A stretch of DNA of 63,315 bases, filler included, from Psammoneis japonica (Eukaryota): assembly GCA_008632985.1 (NCBI GenBank). It is 3 parts of 3 records of this genome, joined end to end, with 100 filler letters (N's around TTAATTAATTAA, not from the genome) between each part and the next. Parts side by side here need not be neighbours in the genome. Positions count along the whole stretch, not along the records: positions 1 to 21,993 come from QPGO01000460.1; 2 more parts are not named here. One strand, written 5' to 3'. The notes under the pieces were generated by a model that saw only the letters and a program-made list of their open reading frames with translations, had not been told where the DNA came from and searched no databases. Of this stretch, positions 1 to 42,775 are shown in pieces. Made by a program: the position numbers and the translations under genes. Every line of letters starts with the position of its first letter. Within the stretch, counting starts at the first letter, position 1.

Positions 1-1542
1 GGGGAGCATGAAGACGCCACTGCCAAAATGTTGGCTGCCACCTGCTCTGCCATTGACGAAGACCTCATTGCCACCACTCGACTTGCAGGAGCTCAGCACA
101 CACAGGACAGGCAATGCCTGTGTGATCTCTTGAAGAAGCCAGTGACAGGGGGGGGCGGGTGGGCTTTTGTCAAACCTTCCAATCACAACCACAATGGTCG
201 CACTGCCTTCTTTGCACTCAAGAGGCAGGCGGAAGGTCGGCTGCTGCCACCACCCAAAAAAACGTGCCTGTGCACAGATTGCTGCCGCAAAGTGCACCGG
301 ATGGGGTTGTTTTACTTTCGACCAGCATGCTCAACGCCATCAGAAAGCTCACAACGACTTGCCCAAGCTTGATGAGCCGGCAGCCGAGACCAAGAAGGTC
401 TCTGACTTTCTCAAGGGTGTCTCGGACCCTGGGTTGGAGACTGGCAAGAGTGCAGTGGATGGAGACCCAACAAAGCCAGTGGATTTCGAAGCATGCCAGC
501 AGCGTGTGAAGACTCTGGCAGAAAATGCTGAGAACCGCAACGCTGATGCTTGCGGAATCACACCCGTCCAACGCCGCAACAACTGGTGCAGAAACCCTGG
601 ATGCAAGCACCAACCAAAAAAGGACAAGCCCAGGATCAGGGCAGGCCACTGTCCCATTGAAGAGTGGAGTGCTCTTGATGGTCCTGGGCAAGAGCAAGTC
701 AAGAAGCTCTGTGAGGCCAAAAAAGTCAAGAAGAAATGCAAAGCAGCAGCTGCATCTTCAGAGGCTGAGTCGGTTGATGTCGAAACTTGCGATGTTAAAA
801 AGGTGGCTGTTGCCGAGCCTGAACCCAAACCTGCTGATGAACAAAAGGACTCCAAAGAGTTGGGCAAACCTGCTGCCAACGCAGGCAAGCAGCTCAGACG
901 CAGTGCCCACAAGAAACCTCAGAAAGAGGCATGAACAGCTGCTCCAGCACCAAAAAGCACAGAGCCGACTGTTGCTGAACCTGCTGGCACTGTGCATTTG
1001 TCTGGGCAATTCTCAAAGGATGTGTGTCTCTTTGTCATCTGCTGGACATTCAGATGGTGAAGCAACCAATGACTTGGACTCGCGTGCTGATGCGTGTGCT
1101 GTTGGGTCCAATTTTGCAATGCACTCTGACATCGACAAGCACTGTCATGGTGCACCCTTGCTCCGAAGAGCGCGCGCCAATGAAAAACATTCCCATTTGC
1201 ACGGCTGCTGCTGTGTGGGTTGATCCAACTGATGGACAACCACACCTGCTGTCAGTCCATGAGGCCATGTGTTTTGGGGACAGGATGACTGACACTCTGC
1301 TGTGCCCCAACCAACTGCAAGCAAATGGACTGACTGCCCATGACACCCCTCGCCAGTTTGATTCTAACAGCACACACTCTGTTGCTTTCCCTGACTCGAA
1401 GATCAGGGTGCCATTGCACATGCGAGGTGTTGCTTCAGTTTTTGACTCACACAAGCCGACAAAGGAGGATCTGGAGAACCTTCCCCAGCTGGAACTCACA
1501 TCACCCCTGAGATGGGAGCCTTCTGCTGATGCCATGGCGCAC
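1..1542 (+). pseudogene. copia gag C-terminal part and aspartic protease (mutated)
   Basis: gag-like KKVSDFLKGVSDPGLE; protease DLDS(H>R)AD(T>A)C; TLLCPNQLQANG..HDTPRQFD..LTSPLRWEP typical of diatom copia pol. Confidence 0.85.
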
Positions 1543-4085
1543 TGAATGCAAACCAAAACGCGGCTCCCACAAAAAGAAAAAAGAAGTCATGACACGAGGA
1601 CAGCCAATTGGCTGCCTTTGCATTGTTGGCAATGATCGATTCTCGCGCAATTCCATGCATTCCTTGTGGCCACAATTCTGCCTTTGTTTCATGGCTGCAC
1701 CCTCTGCGTGTTTTTCCGCACGCGCTCCTTTGCCAACATGCCATTGTTCCATGATCAGCGACAATCTCATGCAGTGGAAAACGAATTGCGTCCATTTTCA
1801 AATGGCTGATCTCCCAATCTCTCAACTGCTCTCTGTCCACACCTGCCAAGCTCCAAAGACCCCCCCCTCTGCCTGCTGTCCTTTTAAGTTCTCTGCTTCA
1901 TGCAGCGAACACCCTTCCATCTTTGCTGCTTCCAGAAGTGTGAATTCGAGATCAACTCGGCTTGATTTGGATCTTTGCCTGTTGCCAATGCTTCCTGCCA
2001 AGTTCCTGTGCAAGACTCAGCACAAGTTCTACGTGTCATAAAGACATTTTCTGATGGCCTGTTTTCCGGTCATCCAACGGCTCTCCATCTGCACCTGCCT
2101 AGCTCCAATGACCCCCCCTTTCCTCAGTGCCTTTTCAAGTTCTTTGCTCTGTGTGGTGAACTCCTTTTTGTTGTTGCTGCCACCAGAAGTTTGACTTTGA
2201 GACCAACTCGGTGGTTGGTGATGTTTTGGTCCCTGTTTGTGAAATTTGCGGTGTTTGCTCTGTTTCAGATCCCTTCTCACTTTGGAATGTTCCAGCACGG
2301 CTTGCTTCAGTGGAATGATCAGATCCAGCCAGAAGCAAAGAGCCACTCCATTGCTGTGGTTTCAAGTGCTTTGAAGGTGCCAAATCAATTTGCTGTTGCT
2401 GTCACAATTCTGCCTTTGTTTCACGGCCATGCCCTCTGCGTGGTTTTCTGCGCAAGCTCTGGTGCAGATGTTGCCTTTTTCTGACGGTGCAATGACGGCT
2501 CTCACCTGCCTGTTCAGACGTGTTCCTTTGTCGACATGCCATTGTTCTGTGATCATTGACAATCTTGTGCAGTGGAGAACGAATTGCACCCAGCTCTCTT
2601 GGCTCAATCGCTCAACGTTTTTCTCGGTGTTTTTTGTTCTCGCGTGCAAAGTTTCCACACAGGTCTCAGTGCAAATTCTACGTGTTTTGCAAGTCATTTC
2701 AGATGGACAACTCGTCAAATTGCCGATTGCTCTCTCTCCATGCCTCTCAAGCATCAACGACCCCCCTTCTCTCTGTTGTCTGTTCAAGTTTCCTGTGTTG
2801 TGTGGCGAACATCTTCCTGTCGTTGTTCCTTTCAGAAGTTTGAAGAAGAGACCAATTCAGTGTGCATTGGCCAATCTTCCGCGTGCCGACAAGTCCACAC
2901 AAGTTTCAGTGCAAGTTCTGCGTGTCAAGGAAATGTTTTAAAACGGCCGATCTCCCAATCACTCGACTGCTCTCCATCCACAACTGCCAAGCTCCAAAGA
3001 CCCCCCCTCCACCTGCTGTCCTTTCAAGTTCTCTGCTTCATGCAGTGAACACCCTTCCATCTTTGCTGCTTCCAGAAGTGTGAATTTGAGATCAACTCGG
3101 CTTGATTTGGCTTTTTGCCTTTTTGCCGATGCTTCCTGCCAAGTTCCTACGCGAGACTCAGCACAAGTTCTGCGTGTCATGAAAACATTTTCTGACGGCC
3201 TGTTTTCCGATCATCCGACGGCTCTCCATCCATGCCTGCCAAGCTCCAGTGACTCCCCCTTTCCTCAGTGCCTTTTTGAGTTCTTTGCTCCATGTCATGA
3301 ACTCCTTTTTGTTGTTGCTGCTGCCAGAGGTTTGACTTTGAGACCAACTCGGTGGCTGGTGATGTTTTGGTCCCTGTTTGTGAAATTTACGGTGTTTGCT
3401 CTGTTTCAGATCCCTTCTCACTTTGGAGTGTTCCAACATGGCTTGCTTCAGTGGAATGATCAGATCCAGTCAGAAGCAAAGAGCCACTCCATTGCTGTGG
3501 TTTCAAGTGCTTTGAAGGTGCCAAATCAATTTGCCGTTGCTGTCTGTGACACTGCTCCCAGCTGTTCCCGGTGGGCGTCATCATTTGTTGGTGACGCCCA
3601 TCTTGGCTGGTCGCCATGCATTCCTGCCGCGCTGTTGGTGCGCTGGGGGTGTGGGTCAGCTTGTTGCCAGAGTTGCAGGAATTTTGGTTTTGTTTTTAAT
3701 TTGCTGTTGCTGTCTGTGACACCACTCCCAACTGTTCCTGGCGGGCATCATCATTTGTTGGTGACACCCATCTTGGCCAATCGCAATGCACTCCTGCCAC
3801 ACTGTTGGTGCGCTGGGGGTGTGGGTTGGCTTGTTGCCGGAGTTGCAGGGTGGAAGTGCAGCAGCACCACAAATGCAGAATTTTGGTTTTGATGCCATGG
3901 CGCAAAAGGAGGAAGCGCACGCATGTGCCAGTGAGCACAAGAACACACCCGGGCATGCTGCAAAGCACGTGCTTCAAGTGTGGAGGAGGAGATGCATTTG
4001 CAAAATTGCCTCTTTTTCTGTTGGCGATCATTCACATGTTCATTGCCCAATGATTTTGCTGCAGAGCTTGCACGCAGAATTCTGC
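1543..4085. repeat. Nested insertion of an unidentified degenerate repeat built from ~240-250-bp subunits, an ~1.14-kb duplication and a 170-bp tandem duplication
   Basis: Breaks copia between protease and integrase. 1790-2400 matches 2930-3540; subunit anchors near 2660/2900/3153; 3541-3710 matches 3711-3890. Right boundary approximate. Confidence 0.75.
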
Positions 4086-4089
4086 GGGC

Positions 4090-7000
4090 CCAATGTCACA
4101 AAAAGTCCCATCTGGGGCTGGAACCCATCTGAGGGAGACGGGCTGCATGACCGGTGCAACCCAGACATCCACCTGGATTGTGCCAAGCGGAAATGGGTGC
4201 ATGCACTGTTGACCTCAAGTCGTGCATCAACCATCACACCCGAGATGCTCTCCAAGAGGTGGAACATTGGTTTGACGGCCACCAAGAACACCCTCAGAGT
4301 GACGACCCAGGCAGGGGTCTGCAATGTCTGCGTGCCATCCGAGCAGAAAGTCTGGAAGAAAGCCCTGTGGCTTGAGTTCCCTGCTGTCAAGAGACACTTC
4401 TGCTCTGACCAGATGTTTTCGAAGGTCAGGTCAATGCATGGCAAGATGGGAGGAAGCGCATTTGCCAACAGAAGAGGGCATGACAAGCTCCATCCTTGGA
4501 AGAGAAACAGGACCACCCAAATGCCATCATGTCATTTGTGCATGGCGTTGGCATTCTGCAAGTCCTTGTGTTGGATGGCACACCGGAAATGGCAGAAGGC
4601 CAGACCAAGGAGATTTGCAAGGAATGCACCAGGAGGTGTCCACCCCGCACAGCCCCTGGCAGAACCTGGCCGAGGCATCCATCCATGAGTTGAAGAAGAG
4701 AGTCCGAGTGACTCTGCGCCGGACTGGCGCTCACAGGTGACTTTGGTCCCACAGTGCCAAATGGACATGTGATGTCCAACGCATGATTGCGACTGCCAGC
4801 ACATCGGACATGGGAGGACGAGTCCCAGAAGAAGAGGTGACAGGTTCAACACCTGACATTTCATCGCTCTCTCTCTTTGATTGGTGTCAACCTGTCTGCT
4901 GTCACATGCCTGTGGCAGAGTTCCAACACATTGAGAAGTGCATTGGCTTTTGGCTTGGAGCAGCCGACAACTGCAACTGCACTGACGACATGGCATTTGT
5001 CATCCTGCCCGAATCAGGCAGACCCATCATTCGGAAAGATGTGTGGGCCATGCCGGAGGATGACCTTAAAACTCCGGCGATCAAAACGGATCTTGCGTCA
5101 GTCAATCAGGCCTTGATCGAATGACTTGACATCCCGGAACAGGGCGCCAATGCTGACTTCCCTGAACTCCCTGATGACTTCATGGACGAATGGGGCAATG
5201 CTGTCAAACCCATGGAACCCGATGCTTCCAAACCAGAAGCTGATGAGCACACCCTGGAGGGGCCAGATGAACACCTCACAGCTCAAGTCATGTCACCACG
5301 TGGAGGCCAGCTGACTCATGCTGGGGTCATTGCATGCAAATGAGATGATGACGGGGTTCCCATTGGCACTGGGAATGACAACCCTGTCCCAGACTCGAGG
5401 ACACACGATGTGGAGTTTCCTGATGGATCCACTGATTCCTGTGCCACTGATGCAATTGCAAAGAACCTGTTCACTCAGATGGACTCTGAAGGGAATGACT
5501 GCCAGATCATGAAGGATGCAGTCGATCACCGATGTGATGCCCGTGCCGCAACGGCTGATGATGGGTGCATGACAACTGAGACTGGCAGGCACGCTCCTGG
5601 GAGGATGACCGCAGGCTGGGACCTGCAAGTCAAATGAAAGGACGGGACTGCATCCTGGGTTCCCCTCAAGGATTTGAAGGAATCTGACCCAGTCGAGGTT
5701 GCTGAGTGCGCTGCAGCAAACAAGGCAGCTGGTGAACCATCTTTTAACTGGTGGGTCCGAGACGTCTTGCATCACAGGTCAAGGATCCTGAAGAAAGTCA
5801 AGTCGCGTTGCTGGAAACGCGCGCACAAGTTCAGAGCTGAGCTCCCAAAATCTGTTGAGGAAGCTGTGGAGACAGACAACAGAGTGGGGGCTGACTTTTG
5901 GTTCAAGGCCATTGAGAAGGAAATGCGCAACGTCATGCATGTGTTCGAATTCTGTGATGATGACACTGCACCGGTCGGGCACAATCACATTGATTGTCAC
6001 ATGATCTTTGACATCAAGAGCACCCTCCAACGCAAAGCAAGGTTTGTGGCCGGAGGCCATCAAACCGATCCACCCAAGGAATTGACTTGTTCCAGTGTGG
6101 CATCACATGACAGCGCTGGGACAGCATTCACTGCAGCAGCTCTGAATGACCTGGAGGTCCTGAGTGCTGACGTTCAGAGTGCCCACTTGAACGCACACAC
6201 TGAGGAGAAGTGTTGCACTGCTGCTGGCTTGGAATTTGGGAAGCACAATGAAGGAAGGCCGGCAATTGTTGTCTGAGCCTTGTGTGGTCTCAAGTCTTCA
6301 GGTGCAAGATTCAGGGAACACATGGCAGCCACCTTGCATGACGCTGGGTTCGAGTCTTGCAAGGCTGACCCGGACATCTGGATGTGAGCTGCGGTCAAGC
6401 CAGGTGGCTTCAAGCACTGGGAACATGTGCTTGTGTGCATGGATGACTTGTTGTGCATCTCCCATGAACCTCAGAAGGTCGTGGATCATGTGAGCTCCAG
6501 GCACGGGCTCAAGGACGGAAGTGTCTGCGAGCCAGAAGAGTGCTTGGGTGCCCAGATCAGAAAGTGCCAGTTGTCTGACTTGGATGGCAAGCCGCGCTGG
6601 GCCATGTCCTCTGACCTTTGTGTCAAAAGGGCATTGGCCAATGTTGAGTTGGAGCTCAAGAAAACTGGCGGGCCTTCCAACAAAGGCGTTGATGCCCTTG
6701 AGCTCAGGGCATGGGCCTGAGCTGGATGGCTCACCTGAGTTGAGTGCCAAAATGGCCAACTGCTGCCAAGGTTTTGTTGGTGTGCTGCGATGGACAGTTG
6801 AGCTGAGGCAACTGGACATTTTTGTTGCTTCCTCACTCATGTCCTCCTGCTTGGCAGCACCACAAGTTCAACACCTGGGCAAGGTGCTCCATGTCTTTGC
6901 GTGCTTGAAGGCTCGCTCCAAGTCTGCGCCAGTGTTCGACGATGCTGAGCCGGTCTTTGACGAGAGCAGTTTTGCCAAGTGCAACTGGGGAGAACATTGT

Positions 7001-7570
7001 CCTGGTGCGGCTGAACCAATTCCGCTGAACATGCCAGAAGCACGTGGGAACAGCCTGGTGCGGCTGAACCAATTCCGCCGAACATGCCAGAAGCACGTGG
7101 GAACAGCATGACTGCTGCTTGCTTTGTTGGCGCTGATCATGCCAGATGCTGTGTGACGTGCAGGCCCCACACTGGGATCCTGACATTCAACAACGAGCTC
7201 CCATCTTGTGTTGCTCTGAGTGGCAGAATGCCATGGAATCATCCACTTTTGGGTCAGAGTTCATGGCAATGAAGACTGCAGTGGAGCAAATTGAAGCCTT
7301 GCATTGCAAGCTGCGGATGCTGGGAATCCCCATGGATGGAGCCACTGATGTCGTCTGTGACAATGAAGCTGTCTTCAAGAACTCAACTGAGCCGGAGTCT
7401 GCTTTGAAGAAGAAGCACAGTGTGATTGCCTGTCACAGGACTCATGAGGCACAAGCCGCTGGAACAGCACGCATTGCTTGGAAAGACGGGTGCACGAATT
7501 TGGCGGACATGCCAACCAAGTTTGTTGCCTGGGCTGAAGCTCCCGGAAATTGCAAGCGATGTCCTGTGGC
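4090..7570 (+). pseudogene. copia integrase, reverse transcriptase and RNase H (mutated)
   Basis: IN, RT and RH motifs in order across several frames; RT catalytic motif reads EHVLVCMDD at 6421-6447. Confidence 0.92.
7001..7106 (+). repeat. 53-bp tandem duplication inside copia RT/RH, also present in copy B (15131-15236)
   Basis: cctggtgcggctgaaccaattccgc(t/c)gaacatgccagaagcacgtgggaacag x2. Confidence 0.95.
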
Positions 7571-7714
7571 AAGCCCCAAAATGGGGCAAACAGAATGGGT
7601 TTGCTGTGCATGTGCGGCTTTTCTCATCCCCAAATGAAAATGATGCCCTGGAGCAGGGCAGCATCAGGTTGCACTTGTCTGTCAATCTGGCCCAAGTGGA
7701 GCCAGCATCAGTTC

Positions 7715-7906
7715 AAGGGGGCTGAACAAATGCTGGCACACTGTCACGAATGCTGGCAATTCACACACCATTGGCAATTGGTCCACTGTCACTCATTTGG
7801 TGGTCCCAGCAGCATGACATCTCACAACTGTGGAACCTGCTGATGCTGTCCAACACTCTGTCTTGTCTCACACCCAATTCTTGGCTGTCATGGCAGCGTT
7901 TGTTCA
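7715..7906 (+). repeat. Polypurine tract plus truncated 3' LTR (TG start at 7723)
   Basis: aagggggc|TGAACAAATGCTGGCACACTGTCAC follows RNase H; the same sequence starts at 10759 upstream of gag and at 15854. Confidence 0.8.
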
Positions 7907-9497
7907 ATCGCAAAGGCCAAAAAATCACAAAGGGCACAAAATGGCCAAGGGTGCAAAATCACAAAGGGTGCAAAATCACAAAGGGCGCAAAATGGCGGAA
8001 AAGGGCGCAAAATCACAAAGGGCGCAAAATCACAAAGGGCGCAAAATGGCCAAGGGCACAAAATCACAAAGGGTGCACAGTCACAAAGGGTGCAAAACGG
8101 CAGCAAAGGGTGCAAAATCACAAAGGGTGCAAAATGGCCGCAAAGGGTGCAAAATCACAAAGGGCGCAAAATGGCGGCAAAGGGTGCAAAATCACAAAGG
8201 GTGCAAAATGGCCAAGGGTGCAAAATCACAGAGGGTGCAAAATCACAAAGGGTGCAAAATGGTGGCAAAGGGTGCAAAATCACAAAGGGTGCAAAATCAC
8301 AAAGGGAGCAAAATGGCCAAGGGCGCAAAGTCGCAAAGGGCTCAAAATCACAAAGGGTGCAAAATGGCCAAGGGTGCAAAATCACAAAGGGTGCAAAATC
8401 ACAAAGGGTGCAAAATGGCTGCAAAGGGCACAAAATCACAAAGGGCGCAAAATGGCGGCAAAGGGCGCAAAATCACAAAGGGTGCAAAATCACAAAGGGC
8501 GCAAAATCACAAAGGGTGCAAAATCACAAAGGGTGCAAAATGGCCAAGGGTGCAAAATCACAAAGGGTGCAAAATGCCGGCAAAGGGTGCAAAATCACAA
8601 AGGGTGCACAATGGCCAAGGGTGCAAAATCACAAAGCACAGAAAATGGCGGCAAAGGGCGCAAAATCACAAAGGGTGCAAAATGGCCAAGGGTGCAAAAT
8701 CACAAAGGGTGCAAAATCACAAAGGGCAGAAAATGGCGGCAAAGGGCTCAAAATCACAAAGGGTGCAAAATGGCCGCAAAGGGTGCAAAATCACAAAGGG
8801 CGCAAAATGGCGGCAAAGGGCGCAAAATCACAAAGGGTGCAAAATGGCCAAGGGTGCAAAATCAAAAAGCGCAGAAAATGGCGGCAAAGGGCGCAAAATC
8901 ACAAAGGGCGCAAAATGGCCAAGGGTGCAAAATCACAAAGGGTGCAAAATCACAAAGGGCAGAAAATGGCGGCAAAGGGCTCAAAGTCACAAAGGGTGCA
9001 CAATGGCCAAGGGTGCAAAATCACAAAGGGTGCAAAGTCACAAAGGGTGCAAAATGGCGGCAAAGGGTGCAAAATCACAAAGGGTGCAAAATGGCCAAGG
9101 GCGCAAAATCACAAAGGGCGCAAAATCACAAAGGGTGCAAAATGGCCAAGGGTGCAAAATCACAAAGGGCACAAAATGGCGGCAAAGGGTGCAAAATCAC
9201 AAAGGGTGCAAAATCACAAAGTGTGCAAAATCACAAAGGGAGCAAAATGGCCAAGGGCGAAAATCGCAAATGGTGCAAAATCACAAAGGGCAGAAAATGG
9301 TGGCAAAGGGCGCAAAATCACAAAGGGTGCAAAATGGCCAAGGGCACAAAATCACAAAGGGTGCAAAGTGGCGGCAAAGGGCGCAAAATCACAAAGGTTG
9401 CAAAATGGCGGCAAAGGGCGCAAAATCACAAATGGTGCAAAATGGCGGCAAAGGGCGCAAAATCACAAAGGGTGCAAAATGGCCAAGGGCGCAAAGT
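7907..9497 (+). repeat. Complex satellite of CAAAATCACAAAGGGTG (17), CAAAATGGCCAAGGGTG (17) and CAAAATGGCGGCAAAGGGTG (20) units
   Basis: Directly visible tandem array of three interleaved unit types. Confidence 0.97.
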
Positions 9498-9566
9498 TGC
9501 TGGCCTTCCTTCGTTGTGCTTCCCAAATTCCAGGCCAGCAGCAGTGCAACACTTNCTCCTCAGTGG
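9498..9566 (-). other. ~68-bp inverted fragment of copia RT at the satellite inversion point
   Basis: Reverse complement matches ~6199-6266 (actgaggagaagtgttgcactgctgctggc...gaaggaaggcc); contains a single N. Confidence 0.85.
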
Positions 9567-9856
9567 CCATTTTGCGCCGTTGGCCATTTTGCTCCCTTTG
9601 TGATTTTGTGCCCTTGGCCATTTTGCTCCCTTTGTGAATTTGCGCCCTTGCCCATTTTGCACCCTTTGTGATTTTGCACCCTTTGCCGCCATTTTGCACC
9701 CTCAGGCAGAGGGGGCAAAGAGAAAGGATAAAGAAAAAATGAAAAACGCCAGCAAGCCAAAGAAGGACACGCCGACGTTGCTCCCTTTGTGAATTTGCGC
9801 CCTTGGCCATTTTGCACCCTTTGTGATTTTGCACCCTTTGCCGCCATTTTGCACCC
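9567..9856 (-). repeat. Same satellite in inverted orientation, with a 155-bp duplicated junction segment
   Basis: cacccttttgtgattttg-type units; ctcaggcagagggggcaaagagaaagg at both 9701 and 9856. Confidence 0.9.
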
Positions 9857-10551
9857 TCAGGCAGAGGGGGCAAAGAGAAAGGACAAAGAAAAAATGAAAA
9901 ACGCCAGCAAGCCAAAGAAGGACACGCCGAAGACAGGAAGAGTGGCGGCAGCACAACCGCCACCCACCCCAACAAATTTGGCAAAGAAAAAAAGATGCAC
10001 AACTGGCCGCGGAACAAAAAACAACAAAAATGAAGTTTGGGCAGTTGGGCACATGCATCGACCACAAAAATGTTTCTGTGGAGCACCGCAGTCTCGAAAT
10101 GGCTGCACTGCTGTGAACCCCACAACATTCGTTGTCCGCTTTTTGTTTTTGGGTTTGTGGTGATTTCAGCATTCAGTTGCTTGTTTTGGGTGTTGCTTCC
10201 AGTCAAGCTGTTGGTCACAACATGTGAAAACGATGCTCGACTGATTCGATTTGTGAAACGACGTGTCCTGAGCTCGACTGTGGACGCGAGTTAGATGCGG
10301 GCACGCGCCCATTTTGCATGGTCTGTCTGTTGACAGGAGCAAAATTGCATTGACAGCTTTGGCAAATGCACGCCCTGAGTTCGACTGTGAATGAGAAACA
10401 GACACGGGTGTGCATCCATTTTTGCATGGTCTGTCCTTCAACCGTGGCCACTTGGCATCGATCAGGTGGGGTCTGTCATTCAACCGGAAGCGTTTCGTGC
10501 CACCTCATGACCCAAACCCAAACCCTCCCATCCCAAATGCACCACATGTGA

Positions 10552-10758
10552 TGGTGGCAAAGGGCACAAAATCACAAAGGGCACAAAATGGCCAAGGGCG
10601 CAAAATCACAAAGGGCGCAAAATGGCAGCAAAGTGTGCAAAATCACAAAGGGTGCAAAATGACATGGCGGCAAAGGGTGCAAAATTGCAAAGGGCGCAAT
10701 GTGGCGGCAAAGGGTGCAAAATCACAAAGGGTGCAAAATCGCAGAGGGTGCAAAATCA
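10552..10758 (+). repeat. Satellite tract abutting the 5' LTR of copia copy B
   Basis: Same 17/20-bp units; ...gcaaaatca|TGAACAAA junction. Confidence 0.92.
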
Positions 10759-13700
10759 TGAACAAATGCTGGCACACTGTCACAAACATGGGCAGCTCAT
10801 GTGCTGTTGGTGATTGGCCCACTGTCGCTTGTTTGGTGGTCCCAGCAGCGCAACATCTCACAGCTCTAGAACCTGTTGATGCTGTCCAACACTCTGTCTT
10901 GTCCTGTGCCCAGTTCTTGGCTGTCATGGTGGCATTTGTTCACTTTGTCAGAGCCAATGCGCTGTGATGTTCATCGTCTGGAACGGGCATCGCAAACAGC
11001 GCAACGCATGTTGCAACACATCGATTTTTGTGGCAAGAGCCATGTTGGTCCCATGGTTGCTCGCGCAATCGCTGAGTCTTTTGCACATGCCAACATTCAT
11101 GGATGTGAACGACACGCTCTTGCAGACCAGAGCTGTGATCCGTTGGACATGACGTCAGTGGACGGAATGTTTGATCACGTGGATGGAACATGTTGGCTGA
11201 GACATGCAAACATCTGTGATGAAGACAACACAATGATTTGTGTGCTGAGGTCTGTCAATTGACTGTGCGCATTTGTTTGACCAAAGTGCACTGTCAAATG
11301 GTTTGGACACACTGCACATGTGGGTGCATGTCTGTTGGAAATTGTTGCTCAGGAGTGTCTTGTGCGTTGTGGATGCAATGTGCAGATGCGCACCTGCACA
11401 GCCGGTCAAGGTTTTGCTGCTGTTCAGGACTTGGAACAGGCCCCTTTGGCAGAGATTGCTGCTGTGACTGAGGGCATGGTGAAAAGCGTGGATGCCACCG
11501 CCAACCCTCAAGTCCACTTCCCACACCTGGTGAATCGCAAGTTCAAGGCACTGCGCACATGGATTGACTGCCACAGAGCCCGAAACCAACAGCCGACTGC
11601 TGCTCTCTTTGCTGGTGACGTCATTGGGACATGGACGGCACGTCTCACAGAACTGGAACAATTCAAGTCAGCGGACTTGGACGATGTGTCGGCTGCCAAG
11701 ACGGCCATGGAACTCAAGAATCTGCATGGCTGGCCTGCCTTCCAAGAGTTGCTGGAGAGTGAGCCACGCCATCACCATTTTGCCATTGCCGGCACACCCC
11801 TTGTCTGCCTGGCTGGGGAGCATGAAGACGCCACTGCCAAAATGTTGGCTGCCACCTGCTCTGCCATTGACGAAGACCTCATTGCCACCACTCGACTTGC
11901 AGGAGCTCAGCACACACAGGACAGGCAATGCCTGTGTGATCTCTTGAAGAAGCCAGTGACAGGGGGGGGGCGGGTGGGCTTTTGTCAAACCTTCCAATCA
12001 CTGCCACAATGGTTGCACTGCCTTCTTTGCACTCAAGAGGCAGGCGGAAGGCTCGGCTGCTGCCACCACCCAAAAAAACTGTGCCTGTGCACAGATTGCT
12101 GCCGCAAAGTGCACCGGATGGGGTTGTTTTACTTTCGACCAGCACGCTCAACGCCATCAGAAAGCTCACAAGAAGGTCTCTGACTTTCTCAAGGGTGTCT
12201 CCGACCCTGGGTTGGAGACTGGCAAGAGTGCAGTGGATGGAGACCCAACAAAGCCAGTGGATTTCGAAGCATGCCAGCAGCGTGTGGAGACTCTGGCAGA
12301 AAATGCTGAGAACTGCAACGCTGATGCTTGCGGAATCGCACCCGTCCAACGCCGCAACAACTGGTGCAGAAACCCTGGATGCAAGCACCAACCAAAAAAG
12401 GACAAGCCCAGGATCAGGGCAGGCCACTGCCCCATTGAAGAGTGGAGTGCTCTTGATGGTCCTGGGCAAGAGCAAGTCAAGAAGCTCTGTGAGGCCAAAA
12501 AAGTCAAGAAGAAATGCAAAGCAGCAGCTGCATCTTCAGATGCTGAGTCGGTTGATGTCGAAACTTGCGATGTTAAAAAGGTGGCTGTTGCCGAGCCTGA
12601 ACCCAAACCTGCTGATGAACAAAAGGACTCCAAAGAGTCGGGCAAACCTGCTGCCAATGCAGGCAAGCAGCTCAGACGCAGCGCCCACAAGAAACCTCAG
12701 AAAGAGGCATGAACAGCTGCTCCAGCACCAAAAAGCACAGAGCCGACTGTTGCTGGACCTGCTGGCACTGTGCATTTGTCTGGGCAATTCTCAAAGGATG
12801 TGTGTGTCTCTTTGTCATCTGCTGGACATTCAGATGGTGAAGCAACCAATGACTTGGACTCGCGTGCTGATGCGTGTGCTGTTGGGTCCAATTTTGCAAT
12901 GCACTCTGACATCGACCACACTGTCATGGTGCACCCTTGCTCCGAAGAGCATGCGCCAATGAAAAACATTCCCATTTGCATGGCTGCTGCTGTGTGGGTT
13001 GATCCAACTGATGGACAACCACACCTGCTGTCAGTCCATGAGGCCATGTGTTTTGGGGACAGGATGACTGACACTCTGCTGTGCCCCAACCAACTGCAAG
13101 CAAATGGACTGACTGCCCACGACACCCCTCGCCAGTTTGATTCTGACAGCGCACACTCTGTTGCTTTCCCTGACTCGAAGATCAGTGTGCCATTGCACAT
13201 GCGAGGTGTTGCTTCAGTTTTTGACTCACACAAGCCGACAAAGGAAGATCTGGAGGACCTTCCCCAGCTGGAACTCACATCACCCCTGAGATGGGAGCCT
13301 TCTGCTGATGCCATGGCACGCTGAATGCAAACCAAAGTGCGGCTCCCACAAAAAGAAAAAAGAAGTCATGACACGAGGACAGCCAATTGGCTGCCTTTGC
13401 ATTGTTGGCAATGATCGATTCTCGCGCAATTCCATGCATTCCTTGTGGCCACAATTCTGCCTTTGTTTCACGGCTGCACCCTCTGCGTGTTTTTCCGCAC
13501 GCGCTCCTTTGTCGACATGCCATTGTTCCATGATCAGCGACAATCTCATGCAGTGGAAAACGAATTGCGTCCAGCTCTCTTGGCTCAATTGCTTGACGTT
13601 CTTCTTGACATTTTTTGTTCTCACTTGCAAAGTTTCCACACAGGTTTCAGTGCAAATTCTGTGTGTTCTGCAAGTCATTTCAGATGAACGACTTGTCAAA

Positions 13701-16037
13701 CTGCCGATTGCTCTCTCTCCATGCCTCTCAAGTGTCAACGACCCCCCTTCTCTCTGTTGTCCATTCAAGTTTCCTGTGTCATGTGGCGAACATCTTCCTG
13801 TCATTGTTCCTTGCAGAAGTTTGAAGAAGAGACCAGCTCAGTGTGCGTTGGCCAACCTTCCGTGTGCCGACAAGTCCACACAAGTTTCAGCACAAGTTCT
13901 GCGCATCAAGGAAACATTTTCAAATGGCCGATCTCCCAATCTCTCAACTGCTCTCTGTCCACACCTGCCAAGCTCCAAAGACCCCCCCTCTGCCTGCTGT
14001 CCTTTTAAGTTCTCTGCTTTATGCAGCGAACACCCTTCCATCTTTGCTGCTTCCAGAAGTGTGAATTCGAGATCAACTCGGCTTGATTTGGATCTTTGCC
14101 TGTTGCCAATGCTTCCTGCCAAGTTCCTGTGCAAGACTCAGCACAAGTTCTACGTGTCATGAAGACATTTTCTGACGGCCTGTTTTCCGATCATCCGATG
14201 GCTCTCCATCTGCACCTGCCAAGCTCCAATGACCCCCCCTTTCCTCAGTGCCTTTTCAAGTTCTTTGCTCTGTGTGGTGAACTCCTTTTTGTTGTTGCTG
14301 CCACCAGAAGTTTGACTTTGAGACCAACTCGGTGGTTGGTGATGTTTTGGTCCCTGTTTGTGAAATTTACGGTGTTTGCTCTGTTTCAGATCCCTTCTCA
14401 CTTTGGAATGTTCCAGCACGGCTTGCTTCAGTGGAATGATCAGATCCAGCCAGAAGCAAAGAGCCATTCCATTGCTGTGGTTTCAAGTGCTTTGAAGGTG
14501 CCAAATCAATTTGCTGTTGCTGTCACAATTCTGCCTTTGTTTCACGGCCATGCCCTCCACGTGGTTTTCTGTGCAAGCTCTGGCGCAGATGTTGCCTTTT
14601 TCTGATGGTGCAATGACGGCTCTCACCTGCCTGTTCAGACGTGTTCCTTTGTCGACATGCCATTGTTCTGTGATCATTGACAATCTTGTGCAGTGGAGAA
14701 CGAATTGCACCCAGCTCTCTTGGCTCAATCGCTCGACGTTTTTCTTGGTGTTTTTTGTTCTCGCATGCAAAGTTTCCACACAGGTCTCAGTGCAAATTCC
14801 GCGTGTTTTGCAAGTCATTTCAACGCCTTGAGCTCAGGGCATGGGCCTGAGCTGGATGGCTCACCTGAGTTGAGTGCCAAAATGGCCAACTGCTGCCAAG
14901 GCCTTGTTGGTGTGCTGCGATGGACAGTTGAGCTGAGGCGAGTGGACATTTTTGTCGCTTCCTCACTCATGTCCTCCTGCTTGGCAGCACCACGAGTTCA
15001 ACACCTGGGTGAGGTGCTCCATGTCTTTGCATGCTTGAAGGCTCGCTCCAAGTCTGCGCCAGTGTTCGACAACGCTGAGCCGGTCTTTGACGAGAGCAGT
15101 TTTGCCAAGTGCAACTGGGGAGAACATTGTCCTGGTGCGGCTGAACCAACTCCGCCGAACATGCCAGAAGCACGTGGGAACAGCCTGGTGCGGCTGAACC
15201 AATTCCGCCGAACATGCCAGAAGCACGTGGGAACAGCATGACTGCTGCTTGCTTTGTTGGCGCTGATCATGCCAGATGCTGTGTGACGTGCAGGCCCCAC
15301 ACTGGGATCCCAACATTCAACAACGAGCTCCCATCTTGTGTTGCTCTGAGTGGCAGAATGCCATGGAATCATCCACTTTTGGGTCGGAGTTCATGGCAAT
15401 GAAGACTGCAAGTGGAGCAAATTGAAGCCTTGCATTGCAAGCTGCGGATGCTGGGAATCCCCATGGATGGAGCCACTGATGTCGTCTGCGACAATGAAGC
15501 TGTCTTCAAGAACTCAACTGAGCCGGAGTCTGCTTTGAAGAAGAAGCACAGTGCGGTTGCCTGTCACAGGACTCATGAAGCACAAGCCGCTGGAACAGTG
15601 CGCATTGCTTGGAAAGATGGGTGCACGAATTTGGCGGACATGCTGACCAAGTTTGTTGCCTGGGCTGAAGCTCCGGGAAATTGCAAGCCATGTCCTGTGG
15701 CAAGCCCCAAAAGGGGACAAACAGAATGGGTTTGCCGTGCATGTGCGGCTTTTCTCATCCCCAAATGAAAATGATGCCCTGGAGCAGGGCAGCATCAGGT
15801 TGCACTTGTCTGTCAATCTGGCCCAAGTGGAGCCAGCATCAGTTCAAGGGGGCTGAACAAATGCTGGCACACTGTCACGAATGCTGGCAATTCACACACC
15901 ATTGGCAATTGGTCCACTGTCACTCATTTGGTGGTCCCAGCAGCATGACATCTCACAACTGTGGAACCTGCTGATGCTGTCCAACACTCTGTCTTGTCTC
16001 ACACCCAATTCTTGGCTGTCATGACAGCGTTTGTTCA
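10759..16037 (+). mobile_element. copia copy B: 5' LTR, gag, protease, same nested insert (13322-14821), internal deletion of IN and most of RT, RH, PPT, truncated 3' LTR (15854-16037)
   Basis: 11815 onward is near-identical to position 1 onward; 14822-16037 is near-identical to 6693-7906; gag-like VHFPHLVNRKFKALRTWIDC after the LTR. 5' LTR end not determined. Confidence 0.92.
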
Positions 16038-16893
16038 ATCGCAAAGGCCAAAAAATCACAAAGGGCACAAAATGGCCAAGGGTGCAAAATCACAAAGGGT
16101 GCAAAATCACAAAGGGCGCAAAATGGCGGAAAAGGGTGCAAAATCACAAAGGGCGCAAAATGGCCAAGGGCACAAAATCACAAAGGGTGCACAGTCACAA
16201 AGGGTGCAAAATGGCAGCAAAGGGTGCAAAATCACAAAGGGTGCAAAATGGCAGCAAAGGGTGCAAAATCACACAGGGTGCAAAATGGCCAAGGGCGCAA
16301 AATCACAAAGGGTGCAAAATGGCCAAGGGTGCAAAATCACAGAGGGTGCAAAATCACAAAGGGTGCAAAATGGTGGCAAAGGGTGCAAAATCACAAAGGG
16401 TGCAAAATCGCAAAGGGTGCAAAATCACAAAGGGAGCAAAATGGCCAAGGGCGCACAATCACAAAGGGCGCAAAATGGCAGCAAAGGGTGCAAAATCACA
16501 AAGGGTGCAAAATGGCGGCAAAGGGTGCAAAATCACAAAGGGTGCAAAATGGCCAAGGGTGCAAAATCACAAAGGGCGGAAAATGGCAGCAAAGGGCTCA
16601 AAATCACAAAGGGTGCAAAATGGCCAAGGGTGCAAAATCACAAAGGGTGCAAAATCACAAAGGGTGCAAAATGGCGGCAAAGGGTGCAAAATCACAAAGG
16701 GTGCAAAATCGCAAAGGGTGCAAAATCACAAAGGGAGCAAAATGACCAAGGGCACAAAATCACAAAGGGAGCAAAATGGCCAAGGGCACAAAAGGGACAA
16801 GGGCACAAAATCACAAAGGGTGCAAAATTGCAATGGGTGCAAAATGGCGGCAAAGGGTGCAAAATCACAAATGGCACAAAATGACCAAGGGCT
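16038..16893 (+). repeat. Satellite array, second large block
   Basis: Same units; opens with the same aatcgcaaaggccaaaaaatcac junction as 7907. Confidence 0.97.
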
Positions 16894-19800
16894 TGGGTGA
16901 GTTGGTGCAGTGCGGGTGCTTTTGTGATGGAGAAAGTTTGTGAAATCCACAAAGCAGTTGTTGTGTGAGTTTGAGGATGAGTTTCCTGTGCGCGGGAATG
17001 GTTTGAAATGAAATGAATGACGAGTTGTGACAGGTTCACAACTGGACAAAATTGTGGAATTGCAAAAGTGATTGTTGCGCAAATGGAAAGATTTTGAAAG
17101 GCAAATGTTTGATGCATTGAACAGAGCTGCAAAACAAGATGCCTGTGCAATGCTTGCAGATGAAATGAGCGCACTTTTTTTTGGCTTTTGGATGGCAAGT
17201 GGACATGTGCAAATTGAGCGCAGTTGAAACCAAAACAAATTTTTCTGATTTTTGCAATGGGAGATTGACACAGGAACAAACAAGAATGGCTGCATGACAG
17301 ACACCCCTGGATTGCCAGTTGATGACCTGCTTGCAAAGGAGCAACGGACAAAAACCGTTCTTGTGGCCTTCTTTGACAACTGGGCTGTCCATGAAACTTT
17401 TGAAGATCTGCGTGCATTTGCTCCAAAGAGTCAGTTTGAAATGCTCTCCACCAACTCCAGCACCATTGTTGCCATGAATGTGCTCAATTACACTGTCATG
17501 GGCAACTTTGTCATCATCAGTCAAGAGAAAATGGGGAATGAATGCTGCCAGCTGCGTGTGTTTGTTGACTCGACCATGGTTAAATTGATTGAACCAAAGC
17601 TGAGGGTGAAGCTTCTTTTGTCTGTTTGGAAGCAAAGTCCACTCAAATTGTCCTGAAGAAGAAGTTCCCAGCACAAGCGTTGTTGACCATTTTGCCATTG
17701 CTTCCAACTTCGACCCAAGGTTGAGTGCCCACAATCATGGGAGCTCCCACACTTGCAAGGTGAGACCCAAAAGTCTGTTGCACAAGGGCATTGAGATGAG
17801 TGTTGGTGGAGTCAATCCAAGATTGGAGTGGCACTGAAGAAGAGGTTCCCAGCGCAAGTGTTGTTGACCATTTCACCATTGCTTCCAACTGCAACCCAAT
17901 GCTGAGTGCCCACAATCTTGGGAACTCCCACACTTGCAAGGTGAGACCCAAAAGTCTGTTGCACAAGGGCATTGAGATGAATGTTGGTGGAGTCAAAAGT
18001 GACATTGAGAGCAAGGAGGTCACTGTTGGCAACAGTTGGGCATTGCAATGGATCCAAGAGGGCTTTGATGTCCAGGAACGCAGAGATCTGGCCATCTTCT
18101 GTCCTGACATTTTCATTGCACACAGCTGCAGAGATGCCAAATGGGTTGCAAGCTGTGCTGCAAGCAAGAGAAGCAAGCAATGTGGCCTTGCAAGATGGCT
18201 CCTGACCATTTGTGTGGATGCCACATGCGACAATGCCCAACAGCCCAGGCACTTGGACAGGAGGTGGAGGAACATGGGCTGTGTGCTGCCTCTGTTCTGG
18301 ACAGAACATCAGAGAGGCAAAAAAGGGTGCATGAGCCACAGGGCATTGTTGCCTGCCTTGCAGTTCTTGGTGCACTCCTTCATTTGTTGGGAGCACACCT
18401 CTCTGACTGAAATGCAGGTTTGCTCATTGGTGCTCCACATTTGTCACTCATTTCCACCCTTGCTCAGACGTGCTCCAGGTCCAGGTGGGACCTCGCACCA
18501 CTGAACTGTGACATCGACAGTTTTTTGAATCGCGCAGCATGTCGCGCACGTGCATTTCTACGTGATTTTGGCAAAATTTTGTGTCATTTTACAGTGCAAT
18601 TGTCAGGCAATCCATTCAACAACTTTCAATGTTTTTTTTCTTCTGCGCCATTCTCGAGTGTCTCAAGAATGGCACAGGGCAGGCAAATCATCCAGAGCTT
18701 TGAGCACTGACAGAGACATGTGCACTGCAAACTTGGCCACTCATTTCGTGTCGAAGACAAGCATGTCCATTGACCAAACACAAACCACAGAGCTCGTCGC
18801 ATGCAGAATTCCATGGGGCAAATGTCACAAAAAGCCCTGCCTGGGACTGGAGCCCATCCTCACTCATTGTTGTCTTCCACATTCCCACCTGAAACAAGAC
18901 AAAATTGTGCTGGACCGGCACATGCATGTTCTGCTCTCAGCAACTCCATCAAATTTTCACACTCTTTGTCACCACTGAGTGATGTCATTGAAATTTTCCG
19001 TTGAAATTGTTGCACGCAATGCTTTCATGTTGCACGTTGTCACATCATGTGCCTGTGCAGCAAAAACAGTGATCACACCACAAACGCTCACCCTGTTCTC
19101 AGCCAGTCAACTGCGCTGCAATCAGATTTGTCCTGCCTGTGTGCTGTCTCTGTGGAATTTCTGCCCTGTGAACTGGTTGCTTGGCTGGATGAAAACAAGA
19201 AAAAGGCACACCGGCCCAACCCAAATCAAACAGGAATTGCCACAATGCACTTGTTTTTTGTTCTCCTCCCCGAGCCCTTCTGGTCATTCCTTCCTGCTAA
19301 ATTGCCCTCATTTTCCGGGAATCACCCAAAAGGGCAAGGTGGCTCCCCCTTGCCCTTGCCACTTTTGGGAATCCCCAAATGGGCAAAACCAAACTGAGCT
19401 GTTGGTGCGCCATTGACAGGACAGGACAAGTTCTCCGCCCACCTTGGGTGCTCCGTTGGTTGGTCTCTTGCTCTCGCAGACATTGACATTCGCCAAGAAA
19501 GATCACCGGACACATTCCCCGCAGGTGCAAAATCTGGATCTGACAATTCTTTGGCTGACAAAAAAGACTCCATTTGTTCTGTGGAGACGGGTGGCACAGA
19601 ATCCTCTCTGGAGGTGATGATGCCCTTCTTGGGGGATGACAAGTTTTCTGACGATCATTTTGATGACAGCGGCCACTGCGATGACACTGACAAAAGCAAT
19701 GACAATGCCAAAAGCACCTGTGTTTCCTCTGGAAAATCCACTCATGCCAAGAAATGTGATGCATCATGCCCCACTTGCCACCCACTCTTCATCTTCTGTG

Positions 19801-21950: not shown

Positions 21951-21993
21951 GGGCGCAAAATGGCCAAGGGCGCAAAATCACAAAGGGGTCAAA
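21950..21993 (+). repeat. Satellite units running into the scaffold gap
   Basis: gggcgcaaaatggccaagggcgcaaaatcacaaagggg. Confidence 0.9.
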
Positions 21994-22093
21994 NNNNNNN
22001 NNNNNNNNNNNNNNNNNNNNNNNNNNNNNNNNNNNNNTTAATTAATTAANNNNNNNNNNNNNNNNNNNNNNNNNNNNNNNNNNNNNNNNNNNN
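21994..22093. other. Artificial 100-bp scaffold gap/linker
   Basis: N run with central TTAATTAATTAA (stops in all frames); identical linker at 42676. Confidence 0.97.
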
Positions 22094-23598: not shown

Positions 23599-24059
23599 GG
23601 TGGAAATGTTGATGTATGTCGAAAGCTTTCTTCTGAACTATGAGAAGGCGAGTCTGGAGAGCGAGCTTCACCGCAGTTCGCTTCGCACGTGTCACGACTG
23701 AGAATTCGAAAGAAATCGAAATCTAACAGTGATGGACGGTGGGCACTCTATTCTTTCTTTCGAGATCGGAATAGCCGCAACTCGAGAAAAGTCTCATGGC
23801 TCTTTCAAAGTAAGCTAGCACCACGTGTTGCCATGGTCACTACTTACGTCTGTGAGGCCGAAACGGAGAAGAGTCGCATGTCTCATGCTGTGTTGTTTGA
23901 CATCATGGTGGGAAAATCCAAAAATCCAGGAGAAACGATCATTCTATCTACGGATTGATGATTCCGGATTCCTGTTCCATCACCGCAGCGAACAGCGCGT
24001 GGAATTTGCTCCCAACAACCACAAACTGAATCCTCATTGACACCCTCAAGCATTCTTAC

Positions 24060-27945: not shown

Positions 27946-28299
27946 GTAGAGCAGTGCAGCCATCTAACAGAAAGTTCCTGTGCCTTCGAAAACCCCATTA
28001 TTGCACTTTATGATTCCTTCGTTTCGAAGCAGTGCGGCCACGCGAATCGATGCAGCAACAGGCTCCGCTGCATGCCTGCTTGGAGCAAGCGACATTAGGA
28101 CCGGCCCACGTGCCACAGTAGAGCGAATTACAATCTTCTGAAGTCACTTCGCGACATCCATGGAAGAAGCAACATGCACCCTATGGACTCGGCGCACCGG
28201 CAGGATTTGGAGAGATTGCCGTTTCATCTTGACTCGAACAGCAAGTTGTAGCCCTACCATGCAGTGAACTACAGTGAACTAGAGTATGGTTCTTTAATT

Positions 28300-42675: not shown

Positions 42676-42775
42676 NNNNNNNNNNNNNNNNNNNNNNNNN
42701 NNNNNNNNNNNNNNNNNNNTTAATTAATTAANNNNNNNNNNNNNNNNNNNNNNNNNNNNNNNNNNNNNNNNNNNN
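42676..42775. other. Artificial 100-bp scaffold gap/linker
   Basis: N run with central TTAATTAATTAA. Confidence 0.97.

What the first reader, a model, noticed from the sequence alone, without database searches (positions are those of the whole stretch)
1355..14810. Paralogous copies catch TA>TG/CA conversion in progress
At residual TA sites the near-identical duplicates differ in the expected way: gattcTAac (1365) vs gattcTGac (13144); gtcaTAaag (2039) vs gtcaTGaag (14160); gcttCAtgc (1899) vs gcttTAtgc (14020); aattTGcgg (2247) vs aattTAcgg (3388, 14368); tttTAagtt (1885) vs tttCAagtt (3025); ggaTAaag (9729) vs ggaCAaag (9884); and one three-state site ttcTAc/ttcTGt/ttcCGc (2679/13660/14800). 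Losses occur in either copy, so the process continued after the duplication.
Basis: seen in the sequence. Interest (0 to 1): 0.75.

Follow-up and report, generated by a model that had tools for sequence, protein, structure and literature searches.

The report
TA-erasing mutation in diatom transposon copies
Two near-identical copies of a dead jumping gene in a diatom show that the cell kept rewriting T-A steps to T-G or C-A after the copies split, a rare kind of targeted DNA mutation so far reported in only one unrelated alga and with no known enzyme.

Summary
All seven cited sites are in the sequence. The block is a duplicated, decayed Ty1/copia element in a diatom; bases 1-21993 hold 31 TA against about 1344 expected. 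The process is real and directional. Of 55 TA shared by three TA-rich copies, 53 are TG (28) or CA (25) here. In 4 of 8 erased copies the 5' LTR keeps its TA while the 3' LTR shows 42 TA>CA/TG changes and 2 transversions. Conversion continued after the duplication: ancestral TA was lost in 17 of 37 cells, other transitions in 132 of 12514. Corrections: four cited sites are post-duplication losses, one is older, 2039 is a gain or error, 9729 is unresolved. Most erasure predates the duplication, and activity today is not shown. TA loss is strand-symmetric, uncoupled from CpG loss, fastest at RTAY and slowest at TTAA, and often spares the promoter LTR. Best guess: an adenine deaminase acting on silenced DNA, enzyme unknown. 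The same signature is in a 2026 Bigelowiella preprint; I found no diatom report. This scan has noted it many times elsewhere in this genome.

The parts
1..1541 (+). Copy 1 of a decayed Ty1/copia LTR retrotransposon, 5' internal part, cut by the contig start
   Evidence: 96% to 11815-13573; 86-87% to TA-rich copies on C356 and C406. Four private indels (236, 263, 1020, 1136) disagree with all sisters and with run X1, so they are probably consensus errors
1542..3904 (.). Insertion into the element: rearranged copies of a 1.3-kb interspersed repeat, flanked by a 14-bp direct repeat (1528-1541 and 3891-3904); holds sites 1885, 1899, 2030, 2039, 2247, 2679
   Evidence: Repeat with the same ends at 7 other loci and a partial eighth; flanking repeat read
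3905..7722 (+). Copy 1, pol region (reverse transcriptase by homology), frames broken, Tyr codons turned to Cys/His
   Evidence: Weak RVT_2 match below the cut-off, E=0.0076; best homologues carry PF07727; 4 of 4 conserved Tyr columns are Cys/His; 53 of 55 shared TA converted
7723..7906 (+). 3' LTR of copy 1 (184 bp, TG...CA, after a purine tract); 0 TA against 14 in TA-rich copies
7906..9495 (.). Satellite of 17-bp units with higher-order periods, into which the element was inserted; TA-free
9623..9930 (.). 155-bp tandem duplication holding the 9729 (TA) / 9884 (CA) pair; direction unresolved
10551..10758 (.). Satellite piece in front of the 5' LTR; ends in the 4-bp target-site duplication
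10759..10942 (+). 5' LTR of copy 2; differs from its own 3' LTR by 10 TG<>CA double changes, 14 further transitions and 2 transversions
10943..15853 (+). Copy 2 of the element with part of the insertion; lacks about 4 kb (equivalent to 2701-6696, junction near 14822); holds sites 13144, 13660, 14020, 14160, 14368, 14800
15854..16037 (+). 3' LTR of copy 2; 0 TA
16037..16892 (.). Satellite array behind copy 2
1..21993 (.). Whole TA-erased block = contig C445 of the own genome (31 TA, 597 CG)

Best explanation
A host mutator rewrites TpA to TpG or CpA in chromosomal DNA of silenced, repeat-rich domains, after an element has inserted. SHOWN: direction, both strands, DNA level, independent in each inserted copy, continuing after the duplication, at least about 100 times faster than ordinary transitions, site by site, fastest at RTAY and slowest at TTAA, with weak leakage to other A followed by a pyrimidine. 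CpG>TpG/CpA is a second, separate process. INFERRED: the chemistry is deamination of the adenine to hypoxanthine, read as G at replication; because TA is its own reverse complement, a hit on either strand gives TG or CA. The enzyme is most likely of the TadA/ADAT2 class, and it is guided by chromatin state rather than by sequence pairing, since the promoter LTR is often spared while its identical twin is erased. The result is loss of Tyr codons and AT-rich signals, which kills the element.
For: Direction: 53 of 55 TA shared by three TA-rich copies are TG (28) or CA (25) in the window, with only 1.3-1.7% transversions. In 4 of 8 erased full-length copies the 5' LTR has 11-14 TA and the 3' LTR 2-3, with 23 TA>CA, 19 TA>TG, 2 changes the other way and 2 transversions in 736 bp. 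Per-copy independence: 75 of 92 ancestral TA sites show both TG and CA in at least 2 of 20 copies each; median concordance of direction is 0.60. After duplication: 17 of 37 ancestral TA cells lost against 132 of 12514 other transitions; 6 of 7 TA sites polymorphic against 99 of 2164 (p=7e-8). New TA get re-erased: 4 singleton TA plus 7 TG<>CA flips against 13.8 gains expected (Poisson p=0.002). Separate from CpG decay: Spearman 0.25, p=0.21, 26 copies. Context: TAC is edited about 2:1 over the opposite strand, TTAA kept 56%, ATAC/GTAC 0%. A TadA-derived editor prefers TAC (PMC9126838, passage). The genome has an ADAT2 with Asn at the position tied to DNA editing (PMC10354150, passages). Same signature measured directly in B. 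natans. Short-read contigs carry the converted state at 24 of 25 inner positions checked.
Against: No enzyme is shown. The deaminase searches gave only ordinary-looking single genes, with no expansion or chromatin-reader fusion seen. The Asn is, from memory, common in eukaryotic ADAT2, so it does not single this genome out. TadA-type enzymes want single strands or loops, yet no strand-coordinated runs were found (931 of 1859 neighbours in the same direction, null 0.49). Sequence alone cannot tell a lesion on A from one on the paired T. Context rates rest on 1-9 sites per tetramer and saturate. The 5' LTR is spared in only 4 of 8 copies, and chromatin state was not measured. Part of the 7 flips can pass through CG instead of TA. 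Run X1 may be the sample the assembly came from.
Confidence: 0.55

Rival explanations
1. TpA in silenced DNA carries a base modification (methylated adenine, or oxidised thymine such as 5-hydroxymethyl- or 5-formyl-uracil) that later deaminates or mispairs, as 5-methylcytosine does at CpG; mutation is then a by-product of a mark.
For: Symmetric dinucleotide target, domain-wide reach, promoter LTR spared, site-by-site independence: all what a maintained mark would give.
Against: No Tet/JBP match in the genome (0 candidates; not proof of absence). The rate is far above CpG decay in young copies (88% of TA against 15% of CG lost in L013). I recall no described TpA mark in diatoms. Adenine methyltransferases were not searched.
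Confidence: 0.2
2. An ADAR/ADAT1-like deaminase edits the DNA strand of RNA:DNA hybrids formed by sense and antisense repeat RNA.
For: The genome has a second A_deamin gene with a DCHAE motif, conserved across named diatoms. ADARs edit DNA in hybrids and favour a 5' T (PMC5389660, passages).
Against: ADAR order there is TAG 94%, AAG 81%, AAT 43%, CAC 53%; here TAC beats TAG and AAG is almost untouched (27 of 1439). The listed homologues show only PF02137, no dsRNA-binding domain. The transcribed promoter end is the part spared.
Confidence: 0.1
3. Error-prone repair synthesis (Pol eta/iota-like, WA hot spot) started at T:G mismatches from methyl-CpG decay.
For: Both processes share the same domains; A>G after T is a known Pol eta error (recalled).
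Against: AA>AG is 4% while TA is 72-92% converted; transversions 0.2%; no strand runs; TA loss uncoupled from CpG loss.
Confidence: 0.07
4. RNA editing or reverse-transcriptase error before insertion.
For: The main target is a retrotransposon.
Against: Strand symmetry 28:25; the two LTRs of one element differ in both directions; satellite and flanking DNA are erased too.
Confidence: 0.02
5. Assembly artefact: base-calling error at modified bases, or two haplotypes joined head to tail.
For: The start of copy 1 has 4 private indels, and the TA at 2939 is read as TC in run X1; X1 holds only 0.47 of the sampled words.
Against: X1 contigs show the converted state at 24 of 25 inner positions, and only 1 of 31 listed differences restores a TA. 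Differences follow CpG and TpA chemistry, and at least 7 copies of the composite exist. This may explain single sites (2039, 2100, 2939), not the pattern.
Confidence: 0.04

Closest known systems
TpA-restricted hypermutation of integrated NCLDV and virophage DNA in Bigelowiella natans (bioRxiv 10.64898/2026.01.13.699255; parts 1-3 of 5 read, methods and supplements not seen)
   Same: TpA>TpG/CpA on both strands of nuclear DNA, confined to foreign or silent regions, hundreds-fold above background, uneven between lines or copies, enzyme unknown, ADAT2 proposed.
   Different: A different supergroup branch (diatom, not chlorarachniophyte). Targets here are LTR elements, satellites and whole repeat domains, erased almost to completion (rho TA about 0.02 against 0.45 in their NCLDV region). 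Evidence here is historical, not de novo. Flanking context, promoter sparing, uncoupling from CpG decay and re-erasure of new TA are not in the parts I read.
Repeat-induced point mutation (RIP) of ascomycetes (RID/DNMT4, DIM-2)
   Same: Repeat-associated, dinucleotide-specific, both-strand transition hypermutation that kills transposons.
   Different: Opposite chemistry (RIP is C>T and makes TpA; this is A>G and removes it). No strand-coordinated runs. One LTR of a pair can be spared, which pairing-based recognition does not predict.
Methyl-CpG decay of silenced transposons (DNMT5-type CpG methylation in diatoms, PMC9998398, passages)
   Same: Explains the CG>TG/CA half of the pattern and probably marks the same domains.
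   Different: Cannot remove TA; the two losses are uncorrelated across copies.
TadA/ADAT2 deaminases and TadA-derived adenine base editors; amphioxus ADAT2/3 (PMC10354150, PMC9126838, passages)
   Same: A>G outcome; 5' T and 3' C preference.
   Different: They act on tRNA loops, hairpins or R-loops; no natural member is shown to mutate chromosomal repeats.
CoDi Ty1/copia elements of diatoms (PMC2806351, passages)
   Same: Substrate: short LTRs, 4-bp target-site duplication as for Blackbeard, RVT_2-type RT.
   Different: The CoDi subgroup was not determined; the element is the victim, not the novelty.

Membership tests
B. natans-type TpA hypermutation | Changes are T/A>C/G transitions at TpA | tested here: met
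   53 of 55; 42 in four LTR pairs. Weak leakage to non-T-A-pyrimidine sites, 35 of 3433 against 10 of 5019 for A-purine
B. natans-type TpA hypermutation | Both strands of nuclear DNA | tested here: met
   28 TG: 25 CA; 19: 23
B. natans-type TpA hypermutation | Confined to foreign or repeated DNA, host genes spared | tested here: met
   rho TA 0.01-0.05 over 1-20000 against 0.5-0.65 in gene-rich parts, with sharp borders; duplicated host-type genes can be hit
B. natans-type TpA hypermutation | Rate about 1000-fold above background per generation, measured de novo | not testable with these tools
   Historical ratios only: mean TA loss 75% against 1.0% non-CpG C>T, about 140-fold by my calculation, about 700-fold in L013
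B. natans-type TpA hypermutation | Uneven, regulated activity | tested here: inconclusive
   4 copies lost 14-29% and 22 lost 72-92% at similar background divergence; this may reflect position rather than timing
B. natans-type TpA hypermutation | Same enzyme (common origin) | not testable with these tools
   Enzyme unknown in both; ADAT2 present here
Fungal RIP | C:G>T:A transitions that enrich TpA | tested here: not met
   TpA is removed
Fungal RIP | Strand-coordinated runs of mutation | tested here: not met
   931 of 1859 same direction, null 0.49; feature recalled; repeated rounds could blur it
Fungal RIP | Triggered by pairing of duplicated sequence, both copies hit | tested here: inconclusive
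   5' LTR spared and 3' LTR erased in 4 of 8 copies; flanks erased too
Fungal RIP | Premeiotic timing, needs RID/DNMT4 | not testable with these tools
   C5-methyltransferase genes are present, not classified
Ty1/copia (CoDi) element | Two LTRs TG...CA, purine tract, target-site duplication | tested here: met
   184-bp LTRs; 4-bp duplications, exact in 5 of 8 sister copies, imperfect in the rest and in the window
Ty1/copia (CoDi) element | RVT_2-type reverse transcriptase | tested here: met
   Window piece below the cut-off; its top homologues carry PF07727 at E 1e-82 to 1e-70
Ty1/copia (CoDi) element | Integrase before RT; placement in a CoDi clade | not tested
   No domain-order scan or tree made

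The most novel reading that the evidence does not exclude
Diatoms run a chromatin-guided genome defence in which a natural DNA adenine deaminase edits TpA on both strands of silenced repeats until none is left: an A-to-G counterpart of RIP, shared with chlorarachniophytes and so perhaps old in SAR. It spares open promoter LTRs and keeps erasing newly arisen TA. Tyr-to-Cys/His copia relics in unrelated public assemblies (4 of 154 proteins) would be its trace in other species.
Probability: 0.4. Interest if true: 0.9.

Novelty: new variant of a known kind. Interest (0 to 1): 0.7.

Why it matters
Known mutational genome defences (RIP, APOBEC, methyl-CpG decay) act on cytosine. A nuclear A-to-G system has one report, a preprint, and no enzyme. 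A diatom case moves the question into a group with genetic tools, and it gives testable handles: a sequence context, LTR pairs as internal clocks, promoter sparing, and a short list of candidate deaminases. A natural enzyme that deaminates adenine in chromosomal DNA would matter for base-editing. The process also distorts LTR dating and repeat annotation in such genomes: two LTRs of a young insertion can differ by 7-19%.

Tried and rejected
Metagenome relatives: 0 of 18 loci are TA-erased (rho 0.58-0.95), but one search pattern holds Tyr and all come from a TA-rich copy, so the test leans to intact copies. Strand coordination: none at 15, 30, 60 or 5000 bases (p 0.08-0.17). Dose-response of the secondary A>G leakage with TA loss across 26 copies: not significant (Spearman 0.32, p=0.11). 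Site 9729 could not be polarised: the related loci read AA or do not align there. Tet/JBP: no match. Deaminase searches gave dCMP deaminase, RibD, a TadA-like gene, ADAT2, two A_deamin genes and three unclassified ones, none conspicuous; ADAT3, APOBEC-like and adenine methyltransferase families were not searched on their own. No RNA holder listed. Run X1 is contigs only and could not test each cited site or the tandem arrangement. The Tyr-poor public proteins carry no organism names. Look-alikes in other genomes of this scan: none. Literature searches for a diatom report returned only the B. natans preprint as relevant; term searches in a 2025 diatom transposon preprint and a 2026 phytoplankton mutation preprint found no TpA mention; PMC11884799 (passages) was not relevant. 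Subscription papers and bioRxiv supplements are outside these searches. My first idea that the 1.3-kb insert is a solo LTR was dropped: it has long flanking direct repeats instead.
Full report
Setting. The window is three contigs joined by N spacers; 1-21993 is contig C445 of a 91-Mb, 597-contig genome. A gene on the second contig (C448, shown to be the same genome) has named homologues only among diatoms (Cylindrotheca, Amphora, Helicotheca), so the organism is a diatom (inference). In 1-21993 there are 31 TA against about 1344 expected and 597 CG against about 1402; gene-rich parts have rho(TA) 0.5-0.65.

Observation. All 7 cited site groups read as stated. The duplicates differ at 82 of 3863 columns: 39 CG<>TG/CA, 4 TA<>TG/CA, 10 transversions, 29 other transitions. 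Six of 10 TA-bearing positions differ. Taken alone this proves little: a TA in one copy may be new, and about 5.8 new TA are expected from the 776 TG/CA sites at the background C>T rate of 0.37%. Outgroups were needed.

Anatomy. The block is a Ty1/copia element with 184-bp LTRs and a 4-bp target-site duplication (as for the diatom element Blackbeard; PMC2806351, passage). It was inserted into a 17-bp satellite and carries a nested 1.3-kb repeat between 14-bp direct repeats. The unit was duplicated; copy 2 lacks about 4 kb. At least 7 near-identical composites (92-98%) lie on C445 (2), C88 (2), C520, C110 and C33, with a further copy of the pol part on C285, so they are segmental duplicates and cannot all be alleles. 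Whether this one pair is tandem or allelic is open. The contig start has 4 private indels that sisters and run X1 lack.

Direction. Thirty copies of the RT region were aligned (the window and 29 others, from the 30 best of 52 matches). They range from rho(TA) 0.65 to 0.01. Of 55 TA shared by the three TA-richest copies, the window has 28 TG, 25 CA and 2 TA; 28 of 56 CG are kept; total divergence is 14-15%, of which transversions are 1.3-1.7%. LTR pairs, identical at insertion, give the direction without an outgroup. I fetched 10 of the 22 erased copies; 8 had both LTRs in reach. In 4 of the 8 the 5' LTR keeps 11-14 TA and the 3' LTR has 2-3, with 23 TA>CA, 19 TA>TG, 2 in the other direction and 2 transversions in 736 bp. 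In the other 4 the 5' LTR is erased too (2-3 TA). The window's own pair differs by 10 TG<>CA doubles, 14 other transitions and 2 transversions; 6 of the 10 doubles are TA and 1 is CG in a TA-rich LTR, 3 are neither. So conversion happens in chromosomal DNA after insertion, on either strand.

Independence. Among 20 family copies, 75 of 92 ancestral TA sites show both products in at least two copies each; median concordance of direction is 0.60 over 26 copies. In contrast the window shares 100 of 100 directions with its sister on C88: about 96% of its erasure came before the segmental duplication.

The cited sites. 1365: TA in 5 of 6 sisters, TG in copy 2, a loss (the TA itself arose on the clade's stem). 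1899: TA in copy 2 and 3 of 3 outgroups, CA in copy 1, TG in three sisters, so at least two losses on opposite strands. 2247: TA in copy 2 and 2 of 3 outgroups, TG in copy 1 and three sisters. 2679: TA in copy 1 and three outgroups, TG in most, CG in copy 2 (two steps). 1885/3025: an older loss shared by four copies. 2039: TA in 1 of 18, a gain or error. 9729: unresolved. Uncited 2100 and 2939 are new TA by transversion or error (X1 reads C at 2940). Over three aligned regions, ancestral TA was lost in 17 of 37 cells, CG in 140 of 505, and other transitions occurred in 132 of 12514. Six of 7 TA sites are polymorphic against 99 of 2164 (p=7e-8); TA against CG p=1. For the window pair alone, 2 of 6 against 18 of 2164 (p=0.001). 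Sites lost in every copy are invisible to this count. Singleton changes at TG/CA sites give 4 TA and 7 TG<>CA flips against 13.8 gains expected (p=0.002): new TA arise and are mostly erased again, though some flips may pass through CG. The process therefore continued after duplication. The copies differ by about 0.8% at neutral sites, so this is recent evolution, not proof of activity today.

Properties. TA loss is 14-29% in 4 copies and 72-92% in 22, with mean CpG loss 29%, non-CpG C>T 1.0% and transversions 0.2%; TA and CpG loss are uncorrelated (rho 0.25, p=0.21). Neighbouring conversions show no strand coordination (0.50 against 0.49). Survival depends on context: TTAA 56%, CTAA/TTAG 33%, CTAG 25%, ATAC, GTAC and GTAT 0%, and at asymmetric sites the TAC strand is hit about twice as often (1-9 sites per tetramer). 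Window survivors agree: 10 of 31 are TTAA, none RTAY. There is weak A>G leakage at other A before a pyrimidine (35 of 3433 against 10 of 5019). Erased copies mostly sit in TA-poor domains reaching kilobases past their ends, and the 4 TA-rich copies in TA-rich surroundings.

Artefact check. Contigs of short-read run X1 carry the window's non-TA state at 24 of 25 inner positions where an outgroup has TA (5 of the 8 listed pieces could be checked). Of 31 listed differences 20 touch CG, 1 makes a TA (2136, as in three sisters) and 1 removes one. X1 may be the assembly's own sample and holds 0.47 of the words.

Mechanism. Shown: what changes, where and in which context. Inferred: adenine deamination in silenced chromatin, read as G. 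TAC preference matches a TadA-derived editor (PMC9126838, passage) better than ADAR, for which TAG 94% and AAG 81% are reported (PMC5389660, passages). The genome has one ADAT2 with the motif GCRNDRFGG (the Asn aligns by eye with the residue needed for DNA editing in amphioxus, PMC10354150, passages), a TadA-like gene with an N-terminal extension, and two A_deamin genes, one with a DCHAE motif conserved in named diatoms. None is implicated. A base mark that later mutates remains a serious rival. Sparing of the promoter LTR points to chromatin state rather than pairing as the guide (inference). CpG loss fits DNMT5-type methylation of diatom transposons (PMC9998398, passages).

Spread. None of 18 metagenome relatives is erased (biased to intact copies). 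Four of 154 public RT proteins have Cys or His at 3 of 4 conserved Tyr columns, 136 have none; the four are 49-59% identical to the closest own-genome copy I hold and are unnamed. This hints at the same process in other organisms.

Prior knowledge. A 2026 preprint measured TpA>TpG/CpA hypermutation in viral inserts of Bigelowiella natans: 230 of 231 mutations were A>G or T>C, all of these at TpA, about 1000-fold over background, ADAT2 proposed (parts 1-3 of 5 read; its supplements could hold context data I did not see). Searches found no diatom report. It works like RIP in purpose but fails RIP's defining chemistry. It meets the sequence features of the B. natans process; common origin is untested. 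Earlier notes of this scan describe the same erasure elsewhere in this genome (73 notes matched); they are unchecked and not counted as support.

Verdict. Observation confirmed; interpretation partly supported; a new variant of a kind known from one preprint; interest 0.7.

Noticed in passing
window 21994-22093 and 42676-42775: N spacers with a short AT linker join three separate contigs; the window is not one locus.
   Followed up: yes
window about 24000-27950, 50250-52500, 57750-59740: Further TA- and CG-erased islands with borders sharp to 100-200 bases inside gene-rich DNA; the first has an erased relative on C39 at 84%.
   Followed up: partly
L168-L171, L174-L177 (C12, C29, C157, C65): 5' LTR and up to about 600 bases of leader keep their TA while the rest of the element, the 3' LTR and mostly the flanks are erased.
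   Followed up: yes
L163-L165 (C301, C297): Extra copies of a C5 DNA methyltransferase gene lie in TA-erased DNA, two with stops: duplicated host-type genes are hit too.
   Followed up: no
L156:1114-2827 (C79): Second A_deamin gene with a DCHAE motif and no dsRNA-binding domain in listed homologues, conserved across named centric and pennate diatoms; function unknown.
   Followed up: partly
window 1542-3904; L076-L083: A 1.3-kb interspersed repeat with fixed ends, a T-rich tail and long flanking direct repeats; class not determined.
   Followed up: partly
window 236, 263, 1020, 1136, 2940: Letters private to this contig that sister copies and run X1 do not share: probable consensus errors near the contig start.
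   Followed up: yes
P0267, P0281, P0290, P0312: Unnamed public copia RT proteins with Tyr replaced by Cys/His at most conserved positions, the protein-level mark of TA erasure, in distant families.
   Followed up: partly
L185-L186 (C203): An erased copy keeps a 250-base internal patch with 16 TA, and its 3' LTR next to a TA-rich flank keeps 7.
   Followed up: no
window 46100-48086: Repeats of about 400 bases at 70-74% inside long open frames on the minus strand (repeated Cys-rich extracellular-looking domains, by eye).
   Followed up: no
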